Positions 1 to 51,666 of a stretch of 64,000 nucleotides of DNA are shown here, piece by piece. Within the stretch, counting starts at the first letter, position 1; the number at the start of each line of letters is the position of its first letter. The position numbers were made by a program, and so were the translations under genes. The stretch lies in sequence record PZ296772.1. The stretch is one strand, 5' to 3'. The stretch comes from a phage. The notes under the pieces were generated by a model, which was not told the DNA's origin, ran no database searches, and saw only the letters and a list, made by a program, of their open reading frames with translations.

Positions 1-24
1 ATCCGGCAACTGATATCACTGTAC

Positions 25-360
25 GTGGATATGGTATTAATGAGCCTATCCAATTGGTCGAATATGACCTTGCCACCGATGAGGAAATTCCTTATGTCGA
101 TTGAAGATATTAAAGGCTACAAGCCGCATACCGACGATAAAATCGGTAAAGTGAACGCTATTAAAGATGCAGAAGTCCGTCTTGGATTGTTGTTTGATGC
201 TCTGATTGAAGAAGCATATATCTTGAAAGAAAATGAAACAGAGCAACAAACCAAAGAAGATATGGATGCAGTACAGGCTCTTAAGTATGCTAAGCAACAT
301 CTAAAAGAAGCCAGCATGTGGGCCTGTCGTGCAGTATTTCGACCTGAGGAAAAATACTAA
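25..360 (+). CDS. hypothetical protein (start uncertain, may begin upstream)
   Basis: 111-aa ORF co-oriented with flanking early genes; no motif recognised. Confidence 0.35.
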   Translation: MDMVLMSLSNWSNMTLPPMRKFLMSIEDIKGYKPHTDDKIGKVNAIKDAEVRLGLLFDALIEEAYILKENETEQQTKEDMDAVQALKYAKQHLKEASMWACRAVFRPEEKY

Positions 361-575
361 TGGCTTCTACTATTACCGGGTTATTGGACTTTCAAGAAAA
401 AGTCAACAAAATTTGTAGTGAATACTTAAAGTATCTTGAAGAAGACCTTGAAGATTGTAAGGAAGAAGGCGAAGAAGACTATGCTGACCAACGTCGTCGC
501 CAAATCGAAGAGATGAGGCATTTCGCCAATATGGTATCTAAAGAATCTTGGGCTTTAACTCCATTTTATCAATAA
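360..575 (+). CDS. hypothetical acidic protein
   Basis: 71-aa ORF, start overlaps previous stop (taATGg). Confidence 0.4.
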   Translation: MASTITGLLDFQEKVNKICSEYLKYLEEDLEDCKEEGEEDYADQRRRQIEEMRHFANMVSKESWALTPFYQ

Positions 576-579
576 AGTA

Positions 580-628
580 GTTTACTTCTCCTCTAGTTGT
601 GTTACTATAGACATGTCAACTAGAGGAG
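580..628 (+). promoter_or_regulatory. early promoter-like cassette inside inverted repeat
   Basis: GTTTAC, 17-nt spacer, TACTAT; flanked by 12-bp inverted repeat ctcctctagttg/caactagaggag that includes the regB RBS. Confidence 0.5.
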
Positions 629-636
629 AAATCAAA

Positions 637-1095
637 ATGACTATCAATTCAGACGTTTTTATCCGCCGTAATAAACTCCGTCGAATCTTTGAAACGGAGT
701 TCCGCAAAATAAATGCCGGTATAAAAGATGCTGCAAAGTCTCTTGGGCTACCCGGCTTTCATATCAAGTATTCTCAACATCTCTTAGATCGTGCCATCCA
801 GAGAGAAATAGATGAGAATTACGTTTTTGAATTATTTCGTAAAGTAAAAAATCATGTTAAAGAAGTTGCAGAATTTTTATCAATGCCGGCACGTCCAGAT
901 GTTGATGAAGATTTTGTCGAAGGTGTCGAATATCGCCCGGGCCGTTTAGAAATAACTGATGGAAATCTTTGGTTAGGACTTACAGTTTGTCGCGAAAATC
1001 CAGCGTTCAAAATGAAGACTCTTCAATGCAGAATGGCTATTATTAACAGTAAACGACTACCAGGAAAAGCTTCTAAAGCAGTGATTAAAATCTAG
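637..1095 (+). CDS. regB: RegB sequence-specific endoribonuclease
   Basis: Start moved to ATG after GAGGAG RBS; ~153 aa; strong recalled similarity to T4 RegB (FIRRNKLRR, HLKYSQHLLDRAIQREIDE, RPGRLEITDGNLWLG, QCRMAIINS.RLPGKASKAVIK). Confidence 0.85.
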   Translation: MTINSDVFIRRNKLRRIFETEFRKINAGIKDAAKSLGLPGFHIKYSQHLLDRAIQREIDENYVFELFRKVKNHVKEVAEFLSMPARPDVDEDFVEGVEYRPGRLEITDGNLWLGLTVCRENPAFKMKTLQCRMAIINSKRLPGKASKAVIKI

Positions 1096-1103
1096 AGGTA
1101 AAC

Positions 1104-1646
1104 ATGAGAAAAGCACTACTCGCTGGTCTATTTGCTCTTTCATTATCAGCACATAGCTCCGAGCATACTTTTAGTAATGTCCAACTCGATAACTTGAATT
1201 ATGCTTATCAGTTTGGGGAGCAGTTTTCTAAGGATGGAAAATTTAAAACGCATGAAAATATGCATAAGAAAGGACTTGGATACATAATGGCCGCAATACT
1301 ATGGCAGGAATCATCTGCTGGTATTAATCTTAAAGATAAGAAAGGTCACCATGCGTATGGAATGTTCCAAAACTATCTACCAACAATGAGGGCAAGAATT
1401 AACCAGCTTGGTTATAATATGACTGATGCCCAAATTAAGAAAATGCTATCTAAGCGGTCTAATTCAACCAGATGGGCTTATATCGAATTTTCTTATTGGT
1501 TAAATATACATAACGGGGATATAAGAAAAGCTATATCCTCATACAATGCGGGATGGAAGACAAGTGCTGGAAGTAAATATGCTTCTGAAGTCCTAGAAAA
1601 GGCTAATTACCTTAAATCAAATAAACTACTGGAAATAAAAGAATGA
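1104..1646 (+). CDS. secreted lytic transglycosylase-like protein
   Basis: N-terminal signal peptide (MRKALLAGLFALSLSAHS); lysozyme-like/SLT motifs WQESS, YGMFQ, SYNAG. Confidence 0.5.
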   Translation: MRKALLAGLFALSLSAHSSEHTFSNVQLDNLNYAYQFGEQFSKDGKFKTHENMHKKGLGYIMAAILWQESSAGINLKDKKGHHAYGMFQNYLPTMRARINQLGYNMTDAQIKKMLSKRSNSTRWAYIEFSYWLNIHNGDIRKAISSYNAGWKTSAGSKYASEVLEKANYLKSNKLLEIKE

Positions 1647-1990
1647 CCAAAATGTTGGCTTTAATAGTTGGCTTGGTTTCATTTAACGCTCTTGCTAATA
1701 CTACATATACTGATGTAACGGAGTATACAAACAGAACGGCGTCTGATTATTGTGGTAAAAGTCAAGAGTGTAAAGTAGATTTTTCACAAAAATTGTTATA
1801 TGCGTATAAAGACGGAGAAAAAGATGGGGCGTCTAGTAGGTTCAAGGCGTCTACCTTAATTAAACGATATCATAAAAAATGGCAAATATTAGAATGCTCG
1901 GTGGCGGAACCTAAAGATAAGGCAGCATGCAATTCTATGGTAGACCGCCTAGTTGACTCTTATACTAGAGGACTTGCAGCAAGTGATTAA
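1643..1990 (+). CDS. secreted hypothetical protein
   Basis: Signal peptide MTKMLALIVGLVSFNALA; 115 aa; position matches T4 vs region (name not asserted). Confidence 0.45.
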   Translation: MTKMLALIVGLVSFNALANTTYTDVTEYTNRTASDYCGKSQECKVDFSQKLLYAYKDGEKDGASSRFKASTLIKRYHKKWQILECSVAEPKDKAACNSMVDRLVDSYTRGLAASD

Positions 1991-2450
1991 AAACTATATC
2001 AAGGGCGATATTGTCGCCCTGTTTTCTAAAGGTAATAATATTGCTCATGGGTGTAATTGTTTTCATACAATGGGCGCCGGTGTAGCAGGACAATTAGCAA
2101 AGGCTTATCCAAAAATTCTGGAAGCCGATAAACTTCAAACTGTATATGGAGATGAGTCTAAACTCGGGACTTATTCAGTTTATGAAAAATATTTTAAGAC
2201 CCATAAAGCTTATTGCTTTAATCTTTATACACAGTTTGAGCCGGGACCTAATTTTGAGTGCTCTGCTTTAATGAATTGTATAATAGAATTAAATGAATTC
2301 GGAAAGAATAAGATAACAAAGCCTGTAATTTATATGCCAAGAATTGGTGCAGGTATCGGTGGTGGAAACTGGGATGTCATCGAAGAGATTTTAGATACAT
2401 ATTCCACTAAACTAGAAATTGTGATTGTTGATTGGGAACCATTGTTATGA
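1983..2450 (+). CDS. macro domain protein (ADP-ribose binding/hydrolase-like); start uncertain (GTG 1983 or TTG 1953)
   Basis: Macro-domain signature GDIVALFSKGNNIAHGCNCFHTMGAGVAGQLAKAYP (cf. GDIT..DAIVNAAN..GGGVAGAI) and PRIGAGIGGGNWDVI. Confidence 0.5.
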   Translation: MIKNYIKGDIVALFSKGNNIAHGCNCFHTMGAGVAGQLAKAYPKILEADKLQTVYGDESKLGTYSVYEKYFKTHKAYCFNLYTQFEPGPNFECSALMNCIIELNEFGKNKITKPVIYMPRIGAGIGGGNWDVIEEILDTYSTKLEIVIVDWEPLL

Positions 2451-2659
2451 ATATACACTATCCACATCCATATGACCCAAAGAATAAGACAGTAATTATT
2501 CGTCAATGGGAACGCATTTGTCGTACTAAATGTCCAATTAATAGTCCACATGATGTAGATAAAGACTACATCGGAACATTCGTTGAATATACCTTTATTG
2601 ATAAGAAAGGCCGTAAACAACATGTAGAAGAATATTGCTTAAAGGTGACATGGCTATGA
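2432..2659 (+). CDS. hypothetical protein
   Basis: 75-aa ORF, start overlaps upstream stop. Confidence 0.4.
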   Translation: MGTIVMNIHYPHPYDPKNKTVIIRQWERICRTKCPINSPHDVDKDYIGTFVEYTFIDKKGRKQHVEEYCLKVTWL

Positions 2660-2862
2660 GTCAAACAAAAATTCTTACAGGTGCTAAATGCGAAAAATGC
2701 GAATGGCCTGTAGTTTTTGCTTTATGCAATGACGAAATGGCTTGTGATTTTGATTATTGGTGTTACTGTTCGAACAAAGGTTGTAGCAATCATAAAGGTG
2801 AAGGGTTTTACTCAGGATTTTACCCTTACCCGGATTTCGTTAAAGAAGGTGAACCTAAATGA
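2635..2862 (+). CDS. hypothetical Cys-rich protein
   Basis: CEKCEW..C..C..C.C...C pattern, possible zinc-binding. Confidence 0.4.
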   Translation: MLKGDMAMSQTKILTGAKCEKCEWPVVFALCNDEMACDFDYWCYCSNKGCSNHKGEGFYSGFYPYPDFVKEGEPK

Positions 2863-3041
2863 AATTGACTAAAGAAGAGAAAACTAAACTGTTCGAACTT
2901 ATCCATGACCTATTGGATGAACAAGCAGCCACCAGTGCGTATGATGAATACGCTCCTTTGACAGACGAAGAATATCAAGCATTGATGGAATCATTTGACA
3001 GGAAAGAACAAGAACTCATTGACTATGTGAATTCACTATAA
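2859..3041 (+). CDS. hypothetical acidic protein
   Basis: 60-aa ORF, coupled start (aATGa). Confidence 0.4.
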   Translation: MKLTKEEKTKLFELIHDLLDEQAATSAYDEYAPLTDEEYQALMESFDRKEQELIDYVNSL

Positions 3042-3050
3042 GGGACTCTT

Positions 3051-3632
3051 ATGGCTAGTTTAATTTTTACATATGCAGCAATGAACGCAGGTAAGTCTGC
3101 TTCATTACTTACTGCCGCACATAACTATAAAGAACGTGGCATGGGTGTATTAGTTCTTAAACCGGCTATTGATACTCGTGATTCAAAAGGTGAAATAGTC
3201 TCTCGCATTGGTATTCGTCAGGATGCCAATATAATTACAAAAGACATGGATATCTTTGAATTTTATAAATGGGCTGCAGCACAAAAGGATATTCACTGTG
3301 TATTTGTTGACGAAGCTCAGTTCTTAACTACTGAAAAGGTGTATCAACTTAGTCGTATTGTTGACGTATACAATGTGCCGGTAATGGCATATGGACTACG
3401 AACAGATTTTAAAGGTAATCTATTTGAAGGTTCTCAAGCATTAATGGCTATCGCCGATAAGCTTGTTGAACTTAAAGGTGTCTGTCATTGCGGTAAAAAG
3501 GCCACAATGGTAGCTAGAGTCGCGGAAGACGGACTTCCAATTACAGATGGCAGTCAAATTGAAATTGGTGATACTGATAGATATGTGTCATTATGCCGGA
3601 AGCATTGGAATGATTTGACAGGGTTGTTATAA
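3051..3632 (+). CDS. tk: thymidine kinase
   Basis: 193 aa; P-loop AAMNAGKSASLL; TK motifs VFVDEAQF and C-terminal zinc ribbon CHCGKKAT...CRKHW; matches recalled T4 Tk. Confidence 0.9.
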   Translation: MASLIFTYAAMNAGKSASLLTAAHNYKERGMGVLVLKPAIDTRDSKGEIVSRIGIRQDANIITKDMDIFEFYKWAAAQKDIHCVFVDEAQFLTTEKVYQLSRIVDVYNVPVMAYGLRTDFKGNLFEGSQALMAIADKLVELKGVCHCGKKATMVARVAEDGLPITDGSQIEIGDTDRYVSLCRKHWNDLTGLL

Positions 3633-3659
3633 ATACTAATATCTAACCAAGAGGTATAT

Positions 3660-3872
3660 ATGCAGCAATTAAACGAAAGACAACTTCGTAATCTTACTGT
3701 AACCCAATTGGATGAAATCCGAAGAGAATTAGGACATTCTATTTCTCATTTAAACGAGGATATCCGTCAAACTGGTTCTAAAGCTGATTATACACGCAAG
3801 CGCAAGCTGGAAAAATACCTCGCAGATGTTAAGGCCGTCCAAAGGCGAAAAATAAATACTGGCCAAAATTAA
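3660..3872 (+). CDS. hypothetical protein
   Basis: 70-aa ORF with GAGG RBS. Confidence 0.45.
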
Positions 3873-3884
3873 CAGGAGGCCTAT

Positions 3885-4187
3885 ATGGCCTTAAGAGCGA
3901 TAGCCATTGTGGCGATGCTGGGGTTTTTTGCAGCAACGACTCCTATTGTTGGCACTGCATATGTTGACCCGTACTTTGATAACTTTATGGAATCAGGGAT
4001 TAAAAACGTATATACTTTGTTCGAAATTCAAAATGTCGAGAATTCTGAAAAATTCTATAAGTATATGGCAAAGCATTACAAAAATAGCCCCTGTGATGAT
4101 GCATTTGAATGCCAGGAACAAGGCATAAAAACTGCCAGACAATTTGCCGAGTTCATGAAAATAAAATTAGAGCCTACATCTATCTAA
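3885..4187 (+). CDS. rI: lysis inhibition regulator RI
   Basis: Signal-anchor MALRAIAIVAMLGFF; recalled similarity to T4 RI (VDP.FD.FMESGI..VY.LFE, NIKLE). Confidence 0.7.
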   Translation: MALRAIAIVAMLGFFAATTPIVGTAYVDPYFDNFMESGIKNVYTLFEIQNVENSEKFYKYMAKHYKNSPCDDAFECQEQGIKTARQFAEFMKIKLEPTSI

Positions 4188-4252: not shown

Positions 4253-4810
4253 ATGAAATTTTTAAAATACATAAGTTGGGTTGTTCTTGTTCCTATAGAT
4301 TGGATCGCAGCGATTTTAGCAATTATTCTAGCACCATTTGTAGTTCCATTCCATAGTGAAAAAACAGGTAAACTACCTTATGGCTTTGACTGGATGATGA
4401 CTTACGATAATCCTATCGATGGTGACCGTGGTCATGTTGAACGTTGGTCTAAAATACGTAAAATTCCTGTTATAGGTAAATATGCTCAACGCGTAGCTTG
4501 GTTATGGCGCAACAAAGCATATAATTTTTCGTATCATGTTTTAGGTCGCGAAGCTTCATCAGAATGGCACTATAAAGGCAACGCTGAAACTAAATCTGGA
4601 TCTCCTGATCCGGCACATCATGGATATCTTTTAGTTTGGAACGAGTCTGCATGGGGATTATTCGCTGCTATACCTTATCTTAAGGTTGGTGGTATTACAT
4701 TTTATCTGCGTGTTTACTGTGGTTGGAAACTTAAGAGTCTTTTGAGTCGTCCTATTCCACGCGCAATGCTTTCATTCCATATCAACCCTTTACGATATTA
4801 CAAAAACTAA
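4253..4810 (+). CDS. membrane protein
   Basis: 185 aa; N-terminal transmembrane segment; flanked by identical terminators. Confidence 0.55.
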   Translation: MKFLKYISWVVLVPIDWIAAILAIILAPFVVPFHSEKTGKLPYGFDWMMTYDNPIDGDRGHVERWSKIRKIPVIGKYAQRVAWLWRNKAYNFSYHVLGREASSEWHYKGNAETKSGSPDPAHHGYLLVWNESAWGLFAAIPYLKVGGITFYLRVYCGWKLKSLLSRPIPRAMLSFHINPLRYYKN

Positions 4811-30657: not shown

Positions 30658-33369
30658 ATGAAAGAATTTTACTTAACGGTTGAACAGATTGGTGATTCAA
30701 TTTTTGAACGTTACATCGATTCTAATGGCCGTGAACGTACTCGTGAAGTAGAATATAAACCATCACTGTTTGCTCATTGTCCAGAAAGTCAGGCTACGAA
30801 ATATTTCGATATCTACGGTAAGCCGTGTACTCGTAAGTTGTTCGCTAATATGCGTGATGCCTCCCAATGGATTAAACGCATGGAAGATATCGGACTTGAA
30901 GCACTTGGCATGGACGATTTCAAATTGGCGTATTTGTCTGACACTTATAACTATGAAATCAAATACGACCATACAAAAATTCGTGTGGCTAACTTCGACA
31001 TCGAAGTAACATCTCCGGATGGGTTCCCTGAGCCGTCACAAGCAAAACATCCAATTGATGCTATCACCCATTATGACTCAATTGATGACAGGTTTTATGT
31101 ATTTGACCTTTTGAATTCTCCATACGGTAATGTGGAAGAATGGTCTATCGAAATTGCGGCTAAGCTTCAAGAACAAGGTGGTGATGAAGTTCCATCCGAA
31201 ATTATCGATAAAATCATTTATATGCCGTTCGATAACGAAAAAGAATTGTTGATGGAATATCTCAACTTCTGGCAACAGAAAACTCCTGTCATTTTGACTG
31301 GATGGAACGTTGAGTCATTTGATATTCCATATGTGTATAACCGAATCAAGAATATTTTTGGCGAATCAACTGCGAAACGTTTATCACCACATCGTAAAAC
31401 TCGTGTTAAAGTTATCGAAAACATGTATGGTTCTCGTGAAATCATTACATTGTTCGGTATCTCTGTTCTTGATTACATTGACCTTTACAAAAAATTCTCT
31501 TTTACCAATCAACCGTCATATTCTCTGGATTACATTTCAGAATTTGAATTGAACGTTGGTAAACTGAAATACGACGGCCCTATTTCTAAGCTTCGTGAAA
31601 GCAATCACCAACGATATATTTCTTATAACATTATCGACGTGTATCGTGTATTGCAAATTGATGCTAAGCGTCAGTTCATCAACTTGAGCTTGGACATGGG
31701 TTATTATGCTAAAATTCAGATTCAATCCGTGTTCAGTCCAATTAAAACTTGGGACGCTATTATTTTTAATAGCCTTAAAGAACAAAACAAGGTGATTCCA
31801 CAAGGTCGTTCGCATCCAGTTCAACCTTACCCAGGTGCTTTTGTTAAGGAACCTATTCCAAATCGATACAAATATGTTATGAGCTTCGACCTCACATCTC
31901 TGTATCCAAGTATTATTCGCCAAGTGAATATTAGTCCGGAAACAATAGCAGGAACGTTTAAAGTAGCTCCATTGCATGATTATATTAACGCTGTTGCTGA
32001 ACGTCCTTCTGATGTGTACAGTTGTTCTCCTAACGGCATGATGTATTATAAAGACCGTGATGGTGTAGTTCCAACTGAAATCACTAAGGTCTTTAATCAA
32101 CGTAAAGAACATAAAGGTTACATGCTTGCAGCTCAACGTAATGGTGAAATAATTAAAGAGGCATTGCATAATCCTAATTTTTCTGATGACGAACCGTTAG
32201 ATGTTGATTATCGTTTCGACTTCAGCGATGAGATTAAAGAAAAGATTAAAAAGTTGTCTGCTAAATCTCTTAATGAAATGTTGTTTAGAGCTCAACGTAC
32301 TGAAGTTGCAGGTATGACTGCACAAATTAACCGTAAATTGCTTATCAACTCACTTTATGGTGCACTTGGCAACGTTTGGTTCCGTTATTACGATTTGCGT
32401 AATGCTACTGCAATCACAACATTCGGGCAAATGGCTTTACAGTGGATTGAACGTAAAGTCAATGAATATCTGAATGAAGTTTGTGGTACAGAAGGCGAAG
32501 CTTTCGTTCTATATGGTGATACAGACTCCATTTACGTATCTGCAGATAAAATTATTGATAAGGTTGGTGAATCTAAATTCCGTGATACCAACCATTGGGT
32601 AGACTTCTTAGATAAGTTCGCTCGTGAACGTATGGAACCTGCTATTGATAGAGGTTTCCGTGAAATGTGCGAATACATGAATAATAAGCAACATTTGATG
32701 TTCATGGACCGAGAAGCTATCGCTGGACCTCCGCTTGGTTCTAAAGGTATTGGCGGATTTTGGACTGGTAAGAAACGTTATGCATTAAACGTGTGGGATA
32801 TGGAAGGCACTCGTTACGCTGAGCCTAAACTCAAAATCATGGGTCTAGAGACTCAGAAATCTTCGACTCCTAAAGCAGTACAGAAAGCTCTTAAGGAATG
32901 TATTCGTCGTATGCTTCAGGAAGGTGAAGAATCATTACAAGAATATTTTAAAGAGTTTGAAAAAGAATTCCGTCAATTGAATTATATTAGCATCGCGTCG
33001 GTATCTTCTGCGAATAACATCGCTAAATATGATGTTGGTGGATTCCCTGGTCCCAAATGCCCGTTCCATATTCGTGGAATTCTGACGTATAACCGGGCTA
33101 TCAAAGGTAATATCGATGCACCACAAGTTGTAGAAGGTGAAAAAGTATATGTTCTGCCTTTACGTGAAGGAAACCCATTCGGTGATAAATGTATCGCATG
33201 GCCTTCTGGTACTGAAATCACAGATTTAATTAAAGACGACGTACTTCATTGGATGGACTACACTGTTCTCCTTGAGAAGACATTTATTAAACCACTTGAA
33301 GGATTCACATCAGCAGCGAAACTCGATTACGAGAAGAAAGCATCTCTGTTCGATATGTTCGATTTTTGA
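30658..33369 (+). CDS. 43: family B DNA polymerase gp43 (RB69-type)
   Basis: 903 aa; exo motifs FDIEV, YNIIDV; pol motifs DLTSLYPSII, LYGDTDSIYV; N-terminus MKEFYLTVEQIGDSIFERYIDSNGRERTREVEYKP matches recalled RB69 gp43. Confidence 0.95.
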   Translation: MKEFYLTVEQIGDSIFERYIDSNGRERTREVEYKPSLFAHCPESQATKYFDIYGKPCTRKLFANMRDASQWIKRMEDIGLEALGMDDFKLAYLSDTYNYEIKYDHTKIRVANFDIEVTSPDGFPEPSQAKHPIDAITHYDSIDDRFYVFDLLNSPYGNVEEWSIEIAAKLQEQGGDEVPSEIIDKIIYMPFDNEKELLMEYLNFWQQKTPVILTGWNVESFDIPYVYNRIKNIFGESTAKRLSPHRKTRVKVIENMYGSREIITLFGISVLDYIDLYKKFSFTNQPSYSLDYISEFELNVGKLKYDGPISKLRESNHQRYISYNIIDVYRVLQIDAKRQFINLSLDMGYYAKIQIQSVFSPIKTWDAIIFNSLKEQNKVIPQGRSHPVQPYPGAFVKEPIPNRYKYVMSFDLTSLYPSIIRQVNISPETIAGTFKVAPLHDYINAVAERPSDVYSCSPNGMMYYKDRDGVVPTEITKVFNQRKEHKGYMLAAQRNGEIIKEALHNPNFSDDEPLDVDYRFDFSDEIKEKIKKLSAKSLNEMLFRAQRTEVAGMTAQINRKLLINSLYGALGNVWFRYYDLRNATAITTFGQMALQWIERKVNEYLNEVCGTEGEAFVLYGDTDSIYVSADKIIDKVGESKFRDTNHWVDFLDKFARERMEPAIDRGFREMCEYMNNKQHLMFMDREAIAGPPLGSKGIGGFWTGKKRYALNVWDMEGTRYAEPKLKIMGLETQKSSTPKAVQKALKECIRRMLQEGEESLQEYFKEFEKEFRQLNYISIASVSSANNIAKYDVGGFPGPKCPFHIRGILTYNRAIKGNIDAPQVVEGEKVYVLPLREGNPFGDKCIAWPSGTEITDLIKDDVLHWMDYTVLLEKTFIKPLEGFTSAAKLDYEKKASLFDMFDF

Positions 33370-33409
33370 TATAATACCATGGACGGTAAACTAATTAAAT
33401 GAGAGAAAT

Positions 33410-34045
33410 ATGAAAACTACTCCTATTACTATCGCTATTGACGCAATCATAAAACAAGCTTCTTCTTTGGCCGCTATGGCCAAAGTAATTAGTCAAAACC
33501 CTGCTCGTTATAATGCTATTCTAGAAACTCTTCGACGCCCGGGACTTAGTAATTATGAAAGCCGAGTAATTATTACAGGTGTTGGTAAGAATGCTAATAT
33601 TGCAACTAAAGCTTCTGAGACATTTGCTTCACTCGGTATCCCGAGTATGTACTTGAACACCGGGCACTATTCTCACGGTGATGCAGGATTTATTGCGCCT
33701 AATGATGTATTAGTTCACATCAGTCGTTCTGGTAAGACTGAAGAAATGATAGGTGTTGCTAAACATCTTCGTATGATTCGTCCTCAGGTTAAACAGATTC
33801 TGTTACATTGTAACCCTGACATTCCACAAGAATACGAAGCTCTTTTTGATTATACGTTCTGTACCGGTATCGCGGTAGAAGTTGACGAGAACTCTTTAGC
33901 TCCGACAATGTCAACCACATTGTTGTTAGCGCTTATCGATACGTTCGCTATCAACCTTTCGTCTGAGCGTGGATTTACCTCTAATGACTTCCTTAAGTTC
34001 CACCCTGGTGGTGCACTAGGTGCCATGTTACGAGGCGAACAATGA
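33410..34045 (+). CDS. SIS-domain sugar-phosphate isomerase (arabinose-5-phosphate isomerase-like, no CBS domains)
   Basis: SIS motifs GVGKNANIATKA, HISRSGKTEE and C-terminal FHPGGALG typical of KdsD/GutQ/KpsF isomerases. Confidence 0.65.
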   Translation: MKTTPITIAIDAIIKQASSLAAMAKVISQNPARYNAILETLRRPGLSNYESRVIITGVGKNANIATKASETFASLGIPSMYLNTGHYSHGDAGFIAPNDVLVHISRSGKTEEMIGVAKHLRMIRPQVKQILLHCNPDIPQEYEALFDYTFCTGIAVEVDENSLAPTMSTTLLLALIDTFAINLSSERGFTSNDFLKFHPGGALGAMLRGEQ

Positions 34046-34185
34046 AAGCAATAACAATAGGACTTTTACTATTGATGCTTGTCATGACTATCTACTGGAG
34101 CTTAACGGCTCCAGTAATGATTCCAACACTTGTAATTGGATGGATTATGATTGGTCTACAGGCAAAGTATGAATGCTTTAACTAG
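34042..34185 (+). CDS. small hydrophobic protein (below ORF-track threshold)
   Basis: 47-aa ORF MKAITIGLLLLMLVMTIYWSLTAPVMIPTLVIGWIMIGL..., two transmembrane-like segments, coupled start. Confidence 0.3.
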   Translation: MKAITIGLLLLMLVMTIYWSLTAPVMIPTLVIGWIMIGLQAKYECFN

Positions 34186-34226
34186 AATAGTGTACAATAC
34201 ATCTACTTACCAATGAGGACCACAAC

Positions 34227-35912
34227 ATGAAAAAAGCTGTTATTCTTGGTGCTGGACTGGCAACTCGTTTGTATCCAATAACGCATCATATTCCAAAAGT
34301 TCTTGTGAACTATAAACAAGACACTATTCTGAGCAATTTGTATACAATTTATTCTGACCTTGGCGCAGATGAAATTATTGTAGTAGTTCATTCAAAATTT
34401 GCTGAAACTGTTCGAGCTTATTGTGAGCAAGAAGGGTTCAATGTGACTATTCGTACAGTTGATGAAGCGTATGGTTCTGCTTATGCTCTTGCTAAATTAC
34501 ACAAAGATTTAGACGGCCATAATGTAATTGTTAACTGGTGTGATATTATTCCTGATTTTGGTTCATGGTCTTGGAATGTTAACGCAATCTATGTTAAGGG
34601 TGACGAATGTCGGTATAATTTCGACGGTGAAAATATCACTAACGTAGGTTCAACAGGTGGTAATGTTGTAGGAATTTATCAGTTCAAAGACTGGGAATTC
34701 TATATGGGTTCTACTGATGAGGAAATTCATGAATACTGCAAAGGACGCGATTTCGTAGAATTCCTTTACAGCGGCGCATTCAATAAATCAGAGCTTATGA
34801 ATCTAATTGATTTAGGTGATATGCCTAAACTTGAAAAAGCTCATGAAGTTCGTGAACTTAATCGTAGTTTTAATGCAGTTGAAATTGGTGAAGAAACTGT
34901 AACTAAATTCGCATTAACCGAACAGGGTCGAGCTCTTCAGAAAGATGAGATTTCATGGTATCTTAAAGTGAAATCAGATTCAGTTCCTCAGTTAGTTTCT
35001 GTAAATGAAAATAACTTTGAAATGGAACGTATTAAAGGTAAGCCGGCATTTGAATATATTAAATCCAAATCAAGTCTTGCTCGTCCACAAATTGTTGATG
35101 CAATTTTAGATGCACTAAAATTCAGCACAGACACGTATTTTGTAAGTCCTGAAACTGTTCGTCGTGATTTCACTAAAGAATTCTATACGAAAGTTATTGA
35201 TCGTTGTGAAAGCATTCAGCCATTGATTGATTCATTTGGTAAAATCACACACGTGAACTACACTAAGATTGGACGTCTGAAGCCAATGCTGAAACAAGCT
35301 TTAGAACACCTTATTCGTTATCATAACCGTTCTCAGGGACAGTACTCTGTTATTCATGGTGACCCGAACTTCAGTAATACTATGATTACTGATAACGGCG
35401 AAGTCAAGTTTATCGACCCTCGTGGATATTTTGGCGAAACCAAGATTTACGGGCCAAAATTGTATGATGAAGCTAAAGTGCTTTATGCTGTTTCAGGTTA
35501 TGATGAATTCAATGCTAATCCGACCTGGGGACAGTTTACTATTGATGAAACAACTTGTAATGTGACTATTAACATCAATCCATTAATTTACAAATATGGA
35601 AAGATGAGTTCGTTTAACGAGTATCATCATTTGGCTGTAGCAATTATCTGGATTGCATTAGGTGGTTATTTCAAGAATAATCCACTTAAAGCGGTAGCCG
35701 CATATTATAAAGGTATGGAACTTCTGACTAAGCAATTACGTAACATGGGCCGTGTACTTCAAGATGGCTCTATTAGTTATGACGTAGCAGAACCTGTAAC
35801 GGCTACTCTGATTACAAAAAATCCTGGTAAATGGGTACTAACTGATAAAGAAACTGGTGTTTCCTATCGTCCAATCGGTGGCGATATCACTCATCAATGG
35901 GAACGAATCTAA
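34227..35912 (+). CDS. bifunctional sugar-1-phosphate nucleotidyltransferase / APH-type anomeric sugar kinase
   Basis: N-terminus ILGAGLATRLYPIT (NTP-transferase G-x-G-T-R-L); C-terminus kinase catalytic loop VIHGDPNFSNTMI and metal-binding FIDPRG. Confidence 0.6.
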   Translation: MKKAVILGAGLATRLYPITHHIPKVLVNYKQDTILSNLYTIYSDLGADEIIVVVHSKFAETVRAYCEQEGFNVTIRTVDEAYGSAYALAKLHKDLDGHNVIVNWCDIIPDFGSWSWNVNAIYVKGDECRYNFDGENITNVGSTGGNVVGIYQFKDWEFYMGSTDEEIHEYCKGRDFVEFLYSGAFNKSELMNLIDLGDMPKLEKAHEVRELNRSFNAVEIGEETVTKFALTEQGRALQKDEISWYLKVKSDSVPQLVSVNENNFEMERIKGKPAFEYIKSKSSLARPQIVDAILDALKFSTDTYFVSPETVRRDFTKEFYTKVIDRCESIQPLIDSFGKITHVNYTKIGRLKPMLKQALEHLIRYHNRSQGQYSVIHGDPNFSNTMITDNGEVKFIDPRGYFGETKIYGPKLYDEAKVLYAVSGYDEFNANPTWGQFTIDETTCNVTININPLIYKYGKMSSFNEYHHLAVAIIWIALGGYFKNNPLKAVAAYYKGMELLTKQLRNMGRVLQDGSISYDVAEPVTATLITKNPGKWVLTDKETGVSYRPIGGDITHQWERI

Positions 35913-50418: not shown

Positions 50419-51000
50419 ATGACATGTCAATCTGAACTTCAAGAACATGAATACCTAACAAATCTGATTGATAGCAAATTCACCCGCCAAGAACAAAACA
50501 TTCTCTGGGCCTGCACCGATTCTAAGGAAGACCCGGATTTCCACTATGAATTAGACCATCTTGTTCGTAAGCATATGACTTCTACAGTGCCAGTAGAACT
50601 CTACCGTGGTGTAACTCCAGAAGAAGTAGAACGTCTTTCCCTTCTTTCTGTGGGATGCCATTGGTCTCCTGGACGAGTAACATCGTTCACAACTGATTTC
50701 AGTACAGCTCGTCAATTCTCCGGGAGATGGGAATATCAGACGTACACTATTCTTAGTCTCAGGAATGCTCCATTCATTTTTGATTACTACCAAAACATGG
50801 TTAACATTGTACTTGCCGGAAAGAACCCTAAGCATGTTATGGAAGAAACGCGTGTTGACGTCCTAGATATGATTGAATCTGAACAAGAATACATGGTCTC
50901 AGGTATCTCTAGATTTGAGATTGTGGAAATTGAAGAGTTAGAGTATGACCCTTTGCCTCGAGTATACAAAATCATTCACTTAAAGATGTTGAATTTTTAG
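50419..51000 (+). CDS. modA: ADP-ribosyltransferase, ModA/ModB type (first of pair)
   Basis: R-S-E motifs: LYRGV, SFTTDF, EQEYMVSG; paralogous to next ORF; symbol by recalled T4 order. Confidence 0.55.
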   Translation: MTCQSELQEHEYLTNLIDSKFTRQEQNILWACTDSKEDPDFHYELDHLVRKHMTSTVPVELYRGVTPEEVERLSLLSVGCHWSPGRVTSFTTDFSTARQFSGRWEYQTYTILSLRNAPFIFDYYQNMVNIVLAGKNPKHVMEETRVDVLDMIESEQEYMVSGISRFEIVEIEELEYDPLPRVYKIIHLKMLNF

Positions 51001-51030
51001 TGTACAAACTCTACCTACGATGATACTATA
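51001..51030 (+). promoter_or_regulatory. early promoter-like
   Basis: TGTACA, 18 nt, TACTAT. Confidence 0.4.
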
Positions 51031-51057
51031 CTTTTATCAACCAGAGGAGAAACCTAA

Positions 51058-51666
51058 ATGTTTATGCCGTATAACGAGTGTGAAATTGAAGAAATGGTTC
51101 GTCGTGCTCAAAACCCCGAATATCAAGATGTATTGCAGTACGAAATTGATAGTCAATTCAGCGACATTGAACAAAGTGTACTGTGGCAGTGTATGGAAAA
51201 CAAGCCAGACTGTATTCAACAGGAGTTAAGTTCAATCGTTCGTAGAAATTGGACGTCTTCTGTTCCTGAGACAATGTATCGTGGAATCTCTAAGAAAACT
51301 ATGGCCACACTCGATGATAAAGGCATTGGTAGTATTATTAAATTTGACAGAGTAATGAGCTTTAGTCCAGTGTTTGGTGTAGCACGTAACTTCGCTTCAT
51401 ATAATTTTTATGGAACATTTAATATGTTCTGCGTCAAAGATGCACCATTTGCTTTCAACTTCCGTGAACATATGCTTAATATGATTCTGGCTGCACCATC
51501 TTGTGAGTTCAATGGAGCTTTCCCTGAAGCGACAAGACGGTCTAATGCTAGACTTATATCTGACGAATGTGAATTTATGCTCCCTATAGGGACTACACTG
51601 CGTGTAGATTCTATTATTCAAGATGGACGTTATACAATCTGGAATCTGTCTATTGTTGGTTACTGA
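51058..51666 (+). CDS. modB: ADP-ribosyltransferase, ModA/ModB type (second of pair)
   Basis: R-S-E motifs: MYRGI, SFSPVF, ECEFMLPIG; symbol by recalled T4 order. Confidence 0.55.
   Translation: MFMPYNECEIEEMVRRAQNPEYQDVLQYEIDSQFSDIEQSVLWQCMENKPDCIQQELSSIVRRNWTSSVPETMYRGISKKTMATLDDKGIGSIIKFDRVMSFSPVFGVARNFASYNFYGTFNMFCVKDAPFAFNFREHMLNMILAAPSCEFNGAFPEATRRSNARLISDECEFMLPIGTTLRVDSIIQDGRYTIWNLSIVGY

What the first reader, a model, noticed from the sequence alone, without database searches (positions are those of the whole stretch)
1983..2450. Macro-domain protein in a phage that encodes ADP-ribosyltransferases
The ORF upstream of tk has macro-domain hallmarks (GDIVALFSKGNNIAHGCNC, MGAGVAG, PRIGAGIGGG). 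The same window encodes two R-S-E-type ADP-ribosyltransferases at 50419..51666. A macro domain could reverse or read phage or host ADP-ribosylation (protein, RNA or DNA) or counter NAD/ADP-ribose-based host immunity.
Basis: inference. Interest (0 to 1): 0.55.

Follow-up and report, generated by a model that had tools for sequence, protein, structure and literature searches.

The report
Phage T4 tk.4/adfM macrodomain ortholog
This gene is a real macrodomain enzyme, but it is the ortholog of phage T4 tk.4 (adfM), which a 2025 preprint showed protects T4 from the bacterial DarTG2 system that ADP-ribosylates phage DNA, so the finding is correct but already known.

Summary

The window is a T4-like Mosigvirus. 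The gene sits in the conserved order regB-vs.1-vs-tk.4-tk.3-...-tk and is 83% identical, without gaps, to T4 Tk.4.

T4 tk.4 was named adfM in the HIDEN-SEQ preprint (Nov 2025). It was the single transposon-screen hit against DarTG2, and a clean knockout made T4 sensitive to DarTG2. The best explanation is therefore removal of DarT2-made ADP-ribose from thymidines in phage DNA. The link to the phage's own ModA/ModB is not supported, because macro homologs occur in 2778 phage records of many genera and Mod homologs in 1053 records listed only from enterobacterial phages.

One refinement is mine. The family has an invariant Gln (Q84, 260/260 homologs) where DarG, TARG1 and PhiKZ "AdfM" have the catalytic Lys. 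This matches Streptomyces SCO6735, a Gln-type macrodomain shown to hydrolyse thymidine-linked ADP-ribosyl-DNA. Enzyme activity of any Tk.4 protein is still untested.

Verdict: already known, low interest.

The parts
1983..2450 (+). tk.4 / adfM coding sequence: 155 aa, GTG start, TGA stop, single macrodomain
   Evidence: ORF listing. 83% identical to T4 Tk.4 over 155/155 aa with no gaps. A CDS mapping to these coordinates is annotated 'macro domain protein' / 'phosphatase' in O157 typing phage 3. Pfam Macro. AF2 model pLDDT 94.4.
1968..1972 (+). Shine-Dalgarno GAGGA, 10 nt upstream of the GTG start; the start overlaps the stop of vs (GTGATTAA), suggesting translational coupling
   Evidence: Read directly from the sequence. 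The same GAGGA is conserved upstream of T4's ATG.
2046..2057 (+). Codons H22-G23-C24-N25 (the H-x-x-N motif). N25 corresponds to the Asn required in SCO6735 (N27), DarG and PhiKZ AdfM (N23); H22 corresponds to SCO6735 H24.
   Evidence: H22 is conserved in 255/260 homologs and N25 in 259/260. Mutagenesis of the equivalents is reported in PMC9411070 and PMC13309987.
2070..2087 (+). Codons M30-G31-A32-G33-V34-A35: the GxG loop that lines the ADP-ribose cleft in macrodomains
   Evidence: G33 and A35 are invariant and G31 nearly so. This loop aligns with MGAGIA of TARG1 and MGKGIA of DarG.
2220..2234 (+). Codons N80-L-Y82-T83-Q84. Q84 occupies the position of the catalytic Lys of TARG1 (K84), DarG (K80) and PhiKZ gp104 (FPTK).
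   Evidence: HMM alignment to TARG1. MAFFT alignment with DarG and PhiKZ gp104. Q84 is conserved in 260/260 homologs, Y82 in 260/260 and N80 in 259/260.
2337..2372 (+). Codons P119-R-I-G-A-G-I-G-G-G-N-W130: the phosphate-binding loop. G126 lies where TARG1 has the catalytic D125.
   Evidence: P119, I121, G122, G124 and W130 are invariant. Alignment to TARG1 MPRIGCGLDRLQW.

Best explanation
The gene is the Mosigvirus ortholog of T4 tk.4, recently renamed adfM (anti-DarT factor, macrodomain). It is a stand-alone macrodomain lying in the regB-tk gene block (an early region in T4, from memory). Its most likely job is counter-defence against DarTG2-type toxin-antitoxin systems.

Proposed mechanism: when the host toxin DarT2 attaches ADP-ribose to thymidines in single-stranded phage DNA and blocks replication, the macrodomain binds the ADP-ribose moiety and hydrolyses the thymine-ribose bond, restoring the DNA.

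The chemistry is probably that of the Gln-type ALC1-like macrodomain SCO6735, not that of the Lys-type DarG. In that scheme Gln84, held in place by Asn25, positions the distal ribose, and a water molecule carries out the cleavage.

What is shown: macro fold and family membership (here); orthology to T4 tk.4 (here); loss of DarTG2 resistance in T4 lacking tk.4 (preprint); thymidine-ADP-ribose hydrolysis by a Gln-type relative (SCO6735 paper).

What is inferred: that this protein, or any Tk.4 protein, is itself the hydrolase, and that it works the same way in this phage.
For: Fold and family:
- Pfam Macro above the curated cut-off.
- AF2 pLDDT 94.4.
- Its only match in PADLOC is DarG (E=2.2e-8, macro part only), and its only match in NCBIfam is antitoxin_DarG.

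Orthology:
- 83% identity with no gaps to T4 Tk.4.
- Same order regB-vs.1-vs-tk.4-tk.3...tk as in T4.
- regB and tk lie within 10 kb in 42 of 80 related viral loci.

Function of the ortholog: tk.4 was the single significant hit when a T4 transposon library was challenged with DarTG2. A clean knockout was sensitised. The authors named it adfM and inferred enzymatic removal of ADP-ribose from DNA.

Active site:
- Q84 aligns with TARG1 K84, DarG K80 and the PhiKZ FPTK lysine and is invariant in 260/260 homologs. N25 is conserved in 259/260 and H22 in 255/260.
- SCO6735 has Gln85, Asn27 and His24 at these positions. It hydrolyses thymidine-linked ADP-ribosyl-DNA and protects against DarT. Q85A is inactive and N27S nearly inactive.
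Against: - No biochemistry exists for any Tk.4 protein. The preprint offers genetics plus a structural resemblance, and it is not yet peer reviewed.
- The catalytic Lys that defines DarG activity is absent.
- The two lysines that position DNA in SCO6735 (K34, K89) do not appear to be conserved (A32 and roughly G88). That mapping is by transitivity through TARG1, not a direct alignment.
- The family carries invariant D49 and Y82, which DarG, TARG1 and BT1257 lack and whose role is unknown (Poa1p does have Asp at the D49 position).
- In other phages the homolog sits beside NAD-salvage or RNA-repair genes, which hints at other or additional substrates.
- The Mosigvirus protein itself has not been tested against DarTG2.
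Confidence: 0.72

Rival explanations
1. Non-catalytic counter-defence: the protein neutralises DarT2 by binding the toxin, or by capping ADP-ribosylated DNA, rather than by hydrolysis.
For: Catalytically dead SCO6735 (Q85A), DarG (K80A) and TARG1 (K84A) all inhibit DarT in vitro by interaction, and SCO6735 does so most strongly. Tk.4 lacks the DarG/TARG1 catalytic Lys.
Against: Residues needed for catalysis in SCO6735 (Gln, Asn, His) are essentially invariant across 260 homologs, as expected for an enzyme. The protein has no counterpart of DarG's C-terminal DarT-binding domain: it is 155 aa and matches positions 4-146 of the 338-position profile.
Confidence: 0.1
2. One reading: the macrodomain erases or tunes the phage's own ADP-ribosylation marks, meaning Alt/ModA/ModB modification of host proteins or ModB RNAylation.
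For: The same genome encodes two Mod-type transferases. Arg-specific macrodomains do exist: MavL is cited in the reference list seen. SCO6735 and TARG1 also act on protein substrates.
Against: The taxonomic distributions do not match: 2778 records across many phage genera for the macro gene against 1053 records listed only from enterobacterial phages for Mod. The genes lie about 48 kb apart and are not linked. The fold class is ALC1-like, not MavL-like. In the T4 screen the gene was flagged only under DarTG2 challenge.
Confidence: 0.05
3. Small-molecule ADP-ribose metabolism, as the main or a second role. Candidates are ADP-ribose-1''-phosphate phosphatase (Poa1p-like), O-acetyl-ADP-ribose deacetylase, degradation of TIR-derived signals (gcADPR, His-ADPR), or support of phage NAD+ reconstitution.
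For: - PHROG 335 is annotated 'phosphatase'.
- In Vibrio phage Ceto the homolog lies between Prs and a Nampt-like gene; in Pseudomonas PAK_P4 it follows Prs and Nampt; in Vibrio phage D484 it follows Pnk and RNA ligase.
- A comparative-genomics review argues that phage macro domains mainly target soluble ADP-ribose derivatives.
Against: - T4 genetics gives a clear DNA-defence phenotype.
- Poa1p has Ser, not Gln, at position 84 (alignment).
- Only 3 of 80 close viral loci have Nampt within 10 kb.
- There is no Nampt/Prs neighbourhood around the gene in this window.
Confidence: 0.13

Closest known systems
T4 Tk.4 = AdfM (anti-DarT factor, macrodomain; HIDEN-SEQ preprint, bioRxiv 10.1101/2025.11.20.689424)
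   Same: Ortholog: 83% identical over all 155 residues without gaps, same position between vs and tk.3, and all family-invariant residues shared.
   Different: Different genus (Mosigvirus, not Tequatrovirus). GTG start instead of ATG. 26 substitutions, for example G127 here against K127 in T4. The DarTG2 phenotype has been shown only for T4.
Streptomyces coelicolor SCO6735 (PDB 5E3B), a Gln-type ALC1-like macrodomain that hydrolyses thymidine-linked ADP-ribosyl-DNA
   Same: Same fold class (profile E=3.7e-15; Foldseek TM 0.71-0.74). Gln at the catalytic position plus the His and Asn partners. Stand-alone protein with no adjacent DarT.
   Different: About 20% identity. The SCO6735 DNA-positioning lysines K34 and K89 seem absent here. 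It is a cellular protein tied to DNA damage and antibiotic production, not a phage counter-defence factor. I could not obtain a residue-by-residue alignment; the equivalences go through TARG1.
DarG antitoxin macrodomain of DarTG2 (PDB 5M31, 5M3E, 5M3I, 7OMU)
   Different: No catalytic Lys (Gln84 instead). No C-terminal DarT-binding domain. No adjacent toxin gene. 30 bits against the NCBIfam cut-off of 250.
PhiKZ gp104 'AdfM' (Cell Rep 2026, PMC13309987)
   Same: A phage stand-alone macrodomain that counters DarTG2. Hydrolysis of DarT2-modified DNA has been shown in vitro, and it carries the same name.
   Different: A different subfamily. gp104 is DarG-type (E=9e-25 to Mtb DarG, FPTK lysine). 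It aligns with the window protein over only 23 residues by BLASTP. It is imported into the phage nucleus.
Human TARG1/OARD1, yeast Poa1p and Bacteroides BT1257
   Same: Nearest solved structures. BT1257 shares the Gln. Poa1p shares H-x-C-N-C and the Asp49 equivalent.
   Different: TARG1 uses a Lys84/Asp125 dyad; here those positions are Q84 and G126. Poa1p has Ser at position 84 and is an ADP-ribose-1''-phosphate phosphatase. BT1257 has no known function.

Membership tests
Macro domain superfamily (Pfam PF01661) | Profile score above the curated gathering threshold | tested here: met
   28.5 bits against a cut-off of 22, E=1.5e-6, covering profile positions 2-117 of 118.
Macro domain superfamily (Pfam PF01661) | Three-layer alpha/beta/alpha macro fold | tested here: met
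Macro domain superfamily (Pfam PF01661) | ADP-ribose-binding loops (GxG loop and Gly-rich phosphate loop) and an N-terminal Asp | tested here: met
   M30-G-A-G33, P119-R-I-G-A-G-I-G-G-G128 and G8-D9 align with the corresponding loops of TARG1 and DarG and are conserved in the family.
Macro domain superfamily (Pfam PF01661) | Physical binding of ADP-ribose | not testable with these tools
   Needs ITC, a thermal-shift assay or a co-crystal structure.
ALC1-like class (TARG1 / DarG / Poa1p / SCO6735) | Closest structural and sequence neighbours belong to this class rather than to MacroD, PARG or macroH2A types | tested here: met
T4 Tk.4 / AdfM ortholog group | Full-length orthology and conserved genomic position | tested here: met
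   83% identity over 155/155 aa. Located between vs and tk.3, upstream of tk, as in T4. Synteny is kept in 42 of 80 related loci.
T4 Tk.4 / AdfM ortholog group | Confers resistance to DarTG2 | not testable with these tools
   Shown only for T4, by a transposon screen and a clean knockout. Not tested for this phage.
DarG antitoxin (NCBIfam NF048014 equivalog) | Full-length model score above the cut-off, i.e. macrodomain plus C-terminal DarT-binding domain | tested here: not met
   30 bits against a cut-off of 250. Only profile positions 4-146 of 338 are matched, and the protein is 155 aa (PADLOC positions 4-145 of 329).
DarG antitoxin (NCBIfam NF048014 equivalog) | Catalytic lysine (Taq DarG K80, in the FPTK motif) | tested here: not met
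   Gln84 occupies that column (YTQ against FPTK). It is Gln in 260/260 homologs.
DarG antitoxin (NCBIfam NF048014 equivalog) | Encoded next to a DarT toxin gene | tested here: not met
   The neighbours are vs (valyl-tRNA synthetase modifier) and tk.3.
SCO6735-type (Gln) thymidine-ADP-ribose hydrolases | Gln at the TARG1-K84 / DarG-K80 position, supported by the Asn and His of the H-x-x-N motif | tested here: met
   Q84, N25 and H22 are present and essentially invariant. The SCO6735 equivalents Q85, N27 and H24 are described. The equivalence is established through TARG1, not through a direct alignment to 5E3B.
SCO6735-type (Gln) thymidine-ADP-ribose hydrolases | DNA-positioning lysines (K34, K89) | tested here: inconclusive
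   By position, K34 maps to A32 (MGAGVA) and K89 to about G88. No direct alignment to SCO6735 could be printed, and other basic residues (for example the nearly invariant K60) might substitute.
SCO6735-type (Gln) thymidine-ADP-ribose hydrolases | Hydrolysis of thymidine-linked ADP-ribosyl-ssDNA | not testable with these tools
   Needs an enzyme assay on DarT2-modified oligonucleotides.
Poa1p-type ADP-ribose-1''-phosphate phosphatase | Poa1p active-site residues and phosphatase activity | tested here: inconclusive

The most novel reading that the evidence does not exclude
The Tk.4 family is defined by a Gln-type active site plus invariant Asp49 and Tyr82, which DarG, TARG1 and BT1257 lack. On the most novel reading it is not only a DarT2 eraser but a broader ADP-ribose-derivative hydrolase. 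It might degrade TIR/Thoeris-type ADP-ribose signals or toxic ADP-ribose phosphates, or feed ADP-ribose back into phage NAD+ reconstitution. That would explain why homologs sit between Prs and Nampt in unrelated phages (Ceto, PAK_P4) and next to Pnk and RNA ligase in KVP40-like phages.
Probability: 0.12. Interest if true: 0.6.

Novelty: already known. Interest (0 to 1): 0.2.

Why it matters
As filed, the finding adds little. Related phage records already annotate the gene as a macro domain protein, and its T4 ortholog has a published (preprint) role as the anti-DarTG2 factor AdfM.

Two modest points remain:
- The T4-type AdfM lacks the catalytic lysine of DarG and has the Gln-type site of SCO6735. 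The accepted picture of an "orphan DarG-like antitoxin" therefore rests on a different chemistry that nobody has tested on a Tk.4 protein.
- Two structurally different phage macrodomains, T4 Tk.4 and PhiKZ gp104, now share the name AdfM.

The family is also very large: 18,039 cluster representatives at E<=1e-3. Pinning down its substrate range would annotate many genes at once.

Tried and rejected
- **Link to ModA/ModB: rejected.** The taxonomic distributions differ, there is no linkage, and the fold class is wrong for Arg-linked ADP-ribose.
- **Membership in DarG proper: rejected.** No catalytic Lys, no C-terminal domain, no toxin neighbour, and 30 bits against a cut-off of 250.
- **Equivalence with PhiKZ AdfM: rejected.** It is a different subfamily.
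- **General association with NAD-salvage genes: seen but rare.** It occurs in Ceto and PAK_P4, yet only 3 of 80 close viral loci have Nampt within 10 kb, and none has Prs, Pnk or RNA ligase by tblastn. It is not a family-wide rule and does not apply to this window.
- **Promoter scan of 1..3800: no claim made.** 10 sigma-70-like sites were found against 13.7 expected by chance.
- **Direct alignment to SCO6735 (5E3B): could not be printed.** It never ranked in the top five alignments, so residue equivalences rely on TARG1 as a bridge plus the paper's own statement.
- **LeRoux et al. 2022 (PMC9250638): not held.** I could not check which T-even phages were tested against DarTG2.
- **Literature searches found no biochemistry for any Tk.4 protein**.

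Full report
**The thing itself.** Window 1983..2450 (+) is an open reading frame of 155 codons. The mechanical ORF list starts it at TTG 1953, but GTG 1983 is the real start for three reasons. It aligns with the ATG of T4 tk.4. A GAGGA Shine-Dalgarno sequence lies at 1968..1972. Closely related records (98% identical over window 1000-4000) annotate a CDS that maps exactly to 1983..2450. The start overlaps the stop of the upstream gene vs (GTGATTAA), and the stop overlaps the ATG of the next gene, so the gene sits in a tightly packed, probably translationally coupled block.

**Is it a macrodomain?** Yes, well beyond chance.
- Pfam Macro (PF01661) scores 28.5 bits against a curated cut-off of 22.
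- A profile of 62 homologs hits PDB sequences of BT1257 (7e-18), TARG1 (4e-16), SCO6735 (4e-15), Poa1p (6e-14) and DarG macrodomains (3e-13 and 7e-12).
- AlphaFold2 with that alignment gives pLDDT 94.4 and pTM 0.90.
- Foldseek gives probability 1.0 to TARG1, Poa1p and DarG.

The protein therefore belongs to the ALC1-like (TARG1/DarG/Poa1p) class.

**Where the window comes from, and which gene this is.** The region is 99.9% identical to Escherichia phages vB-Eco-KMB38 and PTK, and 98% identical to O157 typing phage 3, a Mosigvirus in Tevenvirinae. The local order is regB (613..1095), vs.1 (1104..1646), vs (1643..1990), this gene, three small ORFs, then tk (3051..3632). That is the T4 order regB-vs.1-vs-tk.4-tk.3-...-tk. 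The protein is 83% identical to T4-type Tk.4 over all 155 residues without a gap. Public records already call it 'macro domain protein', 'Poa1p-like family protein', 'Appr-1-p processing domain protein' or 'phosphatase'.

[quoted passage not shown] A clean knockout sensitised T4 to DarTG2. The authors noted similarity of the predicted structure to the M. tuberculosis DarG macrodomain, named the gene adfM, and considered enzymatic removal of ADP-ribose from DNA 'likely'. No enzyme assay or catalytic mutant is reported there, and I found none elsewhere. Earlier work showed that T4 and T2 lacking the NADAR protein AdfN stay resistant to DarTG2, which fits a separate anti-DarTG2 factor.

**A refinement of the mechanism.** In the HMM alignment to TARG1, the catalytic Lys84 (LITKK) aligns with Gln84 of this protein (NLYTQ), and TARG1 Asp125 aligns with Gly126. 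A MAFFT alignment places the FPTK lysine of Mtb and T. aquaticus DarG, and of PhiKZ gp104, in the same column. Across 260 homologs (120 from the word-indexed search and 140 cluster representatives), conservation is:
- Gln84: 260/260
- Asp49: 260/260
- Tyr82: 260/260
- Asn25: 259/260
- His22: 255/260

The Lys that is essential in DarG is thus never present. There is a precedent. S. coelicolor SCO6735 lacks the Lys and Asp and has Gln85 at that position. It still hydrolyses thymidine-linked ADP-ribosyl-DNA efficiently and protects cells from DarT. Q85A and Q85E are inactive, N27S is nearly inactive, and a water-mediated mechanism was proposed. Tk.4 has the same His-x-x-Asn...Gln constellation. 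I therefore read the T4-type AdfM as a Gln-type (SCO6735-like) hydrolase rather than a DarG-type one. The equivalences to SCO6735 are transitive through TARG1, because I could not print a direct alignment. The SCO6735 DNA-positioning lysines K34 and K89 do not seem to be conserved. The roles of Asp49 and Tyr82 are unknown.

**Two different proteins called AdfM.** A 2026 Cell Reports paper names PhiKZ gp104 AdfM and shows in vitro removal of DarT2-made ADP-ribose from DNA, reduced by an N23A mutation. I translated the construct given in that paper. It is a bona fide DarG-type macrodomain (9e-25 to Mtb DarG, FPTK motif). BLASTP aligns it with the window protein over only 23 residues. The two phage factors share a fold class, a target and a name, but they belong to different subfamilies with different catalytic residues.

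**The link to ModA/ModB.** The ORFs at 50419..51000 and 51058..51666 are indeed Mod-type ADP-ribosyltransferases. Nothing ties them to the macrodomain, however. They are about 48 kb away. Mod homologs occur in 1053 phage records, and every genus listed is an enterobacterial host. Tk.4 homologs occur in 2778 records, including Pseudomonas (183), Vibrio (134), Acinetobacter (94), Aeromonas (84) and a Bacillus phage. The characterised substrates of this fold class are ester-, phosphate- and thymidine-linked ADP-ribose (established knowledge). An Arg-specific macrodomain (MavL) does exist, so this rival cannot be excluded on chemistry alone (reference seen), but it belongs to another clade.

**Other readings.** PHROG 335 calls the family 'phosphatase', and Poa1p, an ADP-ribose-1''-phosphate phosphatase, is a close structural neighbour. 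In some distant phages the homolog lies in NAD-salvage or RNA-repair neighbourhoods:
- between Prs and a Nampt-like gene in Vibrio phage Ceto;
- after Prs and Nampt in Pseudomonas PAK_P4;
- after Pnk and RNA ligase in Vibrio phage D484;
- as the N-terminal part of a 261-aa protein in Felixounavirus.

A comparative-genomics review argued that phage macro domains mostly target soluble ADP-ribose derivatives. Among the 80 closest viral loci, though, only 3 have Nampt within 10 kb, whereas 42 keep the regB...tk synteny. An additional small-molecule role stays open but is not indicated for this window.

**Family size.** A profile search of 1.84 billion cluster representatives returns 18,039 proteins at E<=1e-3, 8,842 at E<=1e-10 and 1,204 at E<=1e-30.

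**Verdict.** The gene is the known tk.4/adfM macrodomain, most likely a DNA de-ADP-ribosylase that counters DarTG2. Novelty: already known. The only new angle is the Gln-type active site, together with the fact that hydrolase activity of any Tk.4 protein has not been demonstrated. Interest is low (0.2).

Noticed in passing
window 2002..2020 (+), inside tk.4 codons 7-13: An 8-bp GC-rich hairpin (AGGGCGAT-ATT-GTCGCCCT, about -13 kcal/mol) followed by TTTTCT lies 12 nt after the vs stop codon and was flagged as terminator-like. It is identical in T4 although the flanks differ. It is retained in every sampled lineage where the peptide reads KGD[IL][VI]AL, with one compensatory G-C to A-U change in L024. 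It is lost where the peptide differs. It could attenuate read-through from vs into tk.4, or it could be a by-product of the GGCGAY...RTCGCC codons.
   Followed up: partly
L004 3135..6149 (Vibrio phage Ceto); L005 1..3480 (Pseudomonas phage PAK_P4): In two unrelated phage lineages the Tk.4-like macrodomain gene is embedded in, or adjacent to, the ribose-phosphate pyrophosphokinase plus nicotinamide/nicotinate phosphoribosyltransferase pair, which are NAD+ salvage genes. Only 3 of 80 close IMG/VR loci (L053, L055, L061) show Nampt within 10 kb.
   Followed up: partly
L006 4983..5768 (Salmonella virus VSe11, Felixounavirus): Here the macrodomain is the N-terminal part of a 261-aa 'phosphatase' protein with a C-terminal extension of about 100 aa and unknown nature. 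Several cluster representatives are also 200-470 aa long, with the macro domain at one end.
   Followed up: no
PhiKZ gp104 (sequence from PMC13309987) compared with window 1983..2450: Two phage anti-DarTG2 macrodomains were independently named AdfM but belong to different subfamilies. PhiKZ gp104 is DarG-type with the FPTK lysine. T4/Mosigvirus Tk.4 is Gln-type.
   Followed up: yes
window 4253..4810 (+): A 185-aa ORF with a hydrophobic N-terminus, downstream of rI. The close relative O157 typing phage 3 annotates only small ORFs at the equivalent place. It may be a variable or accessory gene.
   Followed up: no
about window 31900..34800 (+), by collinearity with L003: In the collinear relative, genes annotated as arabinose-5-phosphate isomerase (KpsF), a GlmU-like bifunctional protein and phosphoheptose isomerase lie just downstream of the DNA polymerase gene. 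From memory, this cluster is linked to the arabinosyl-hydroxymethylcytosine DNA modification of RB69-like phages. Not checked here.
   Followed up: no
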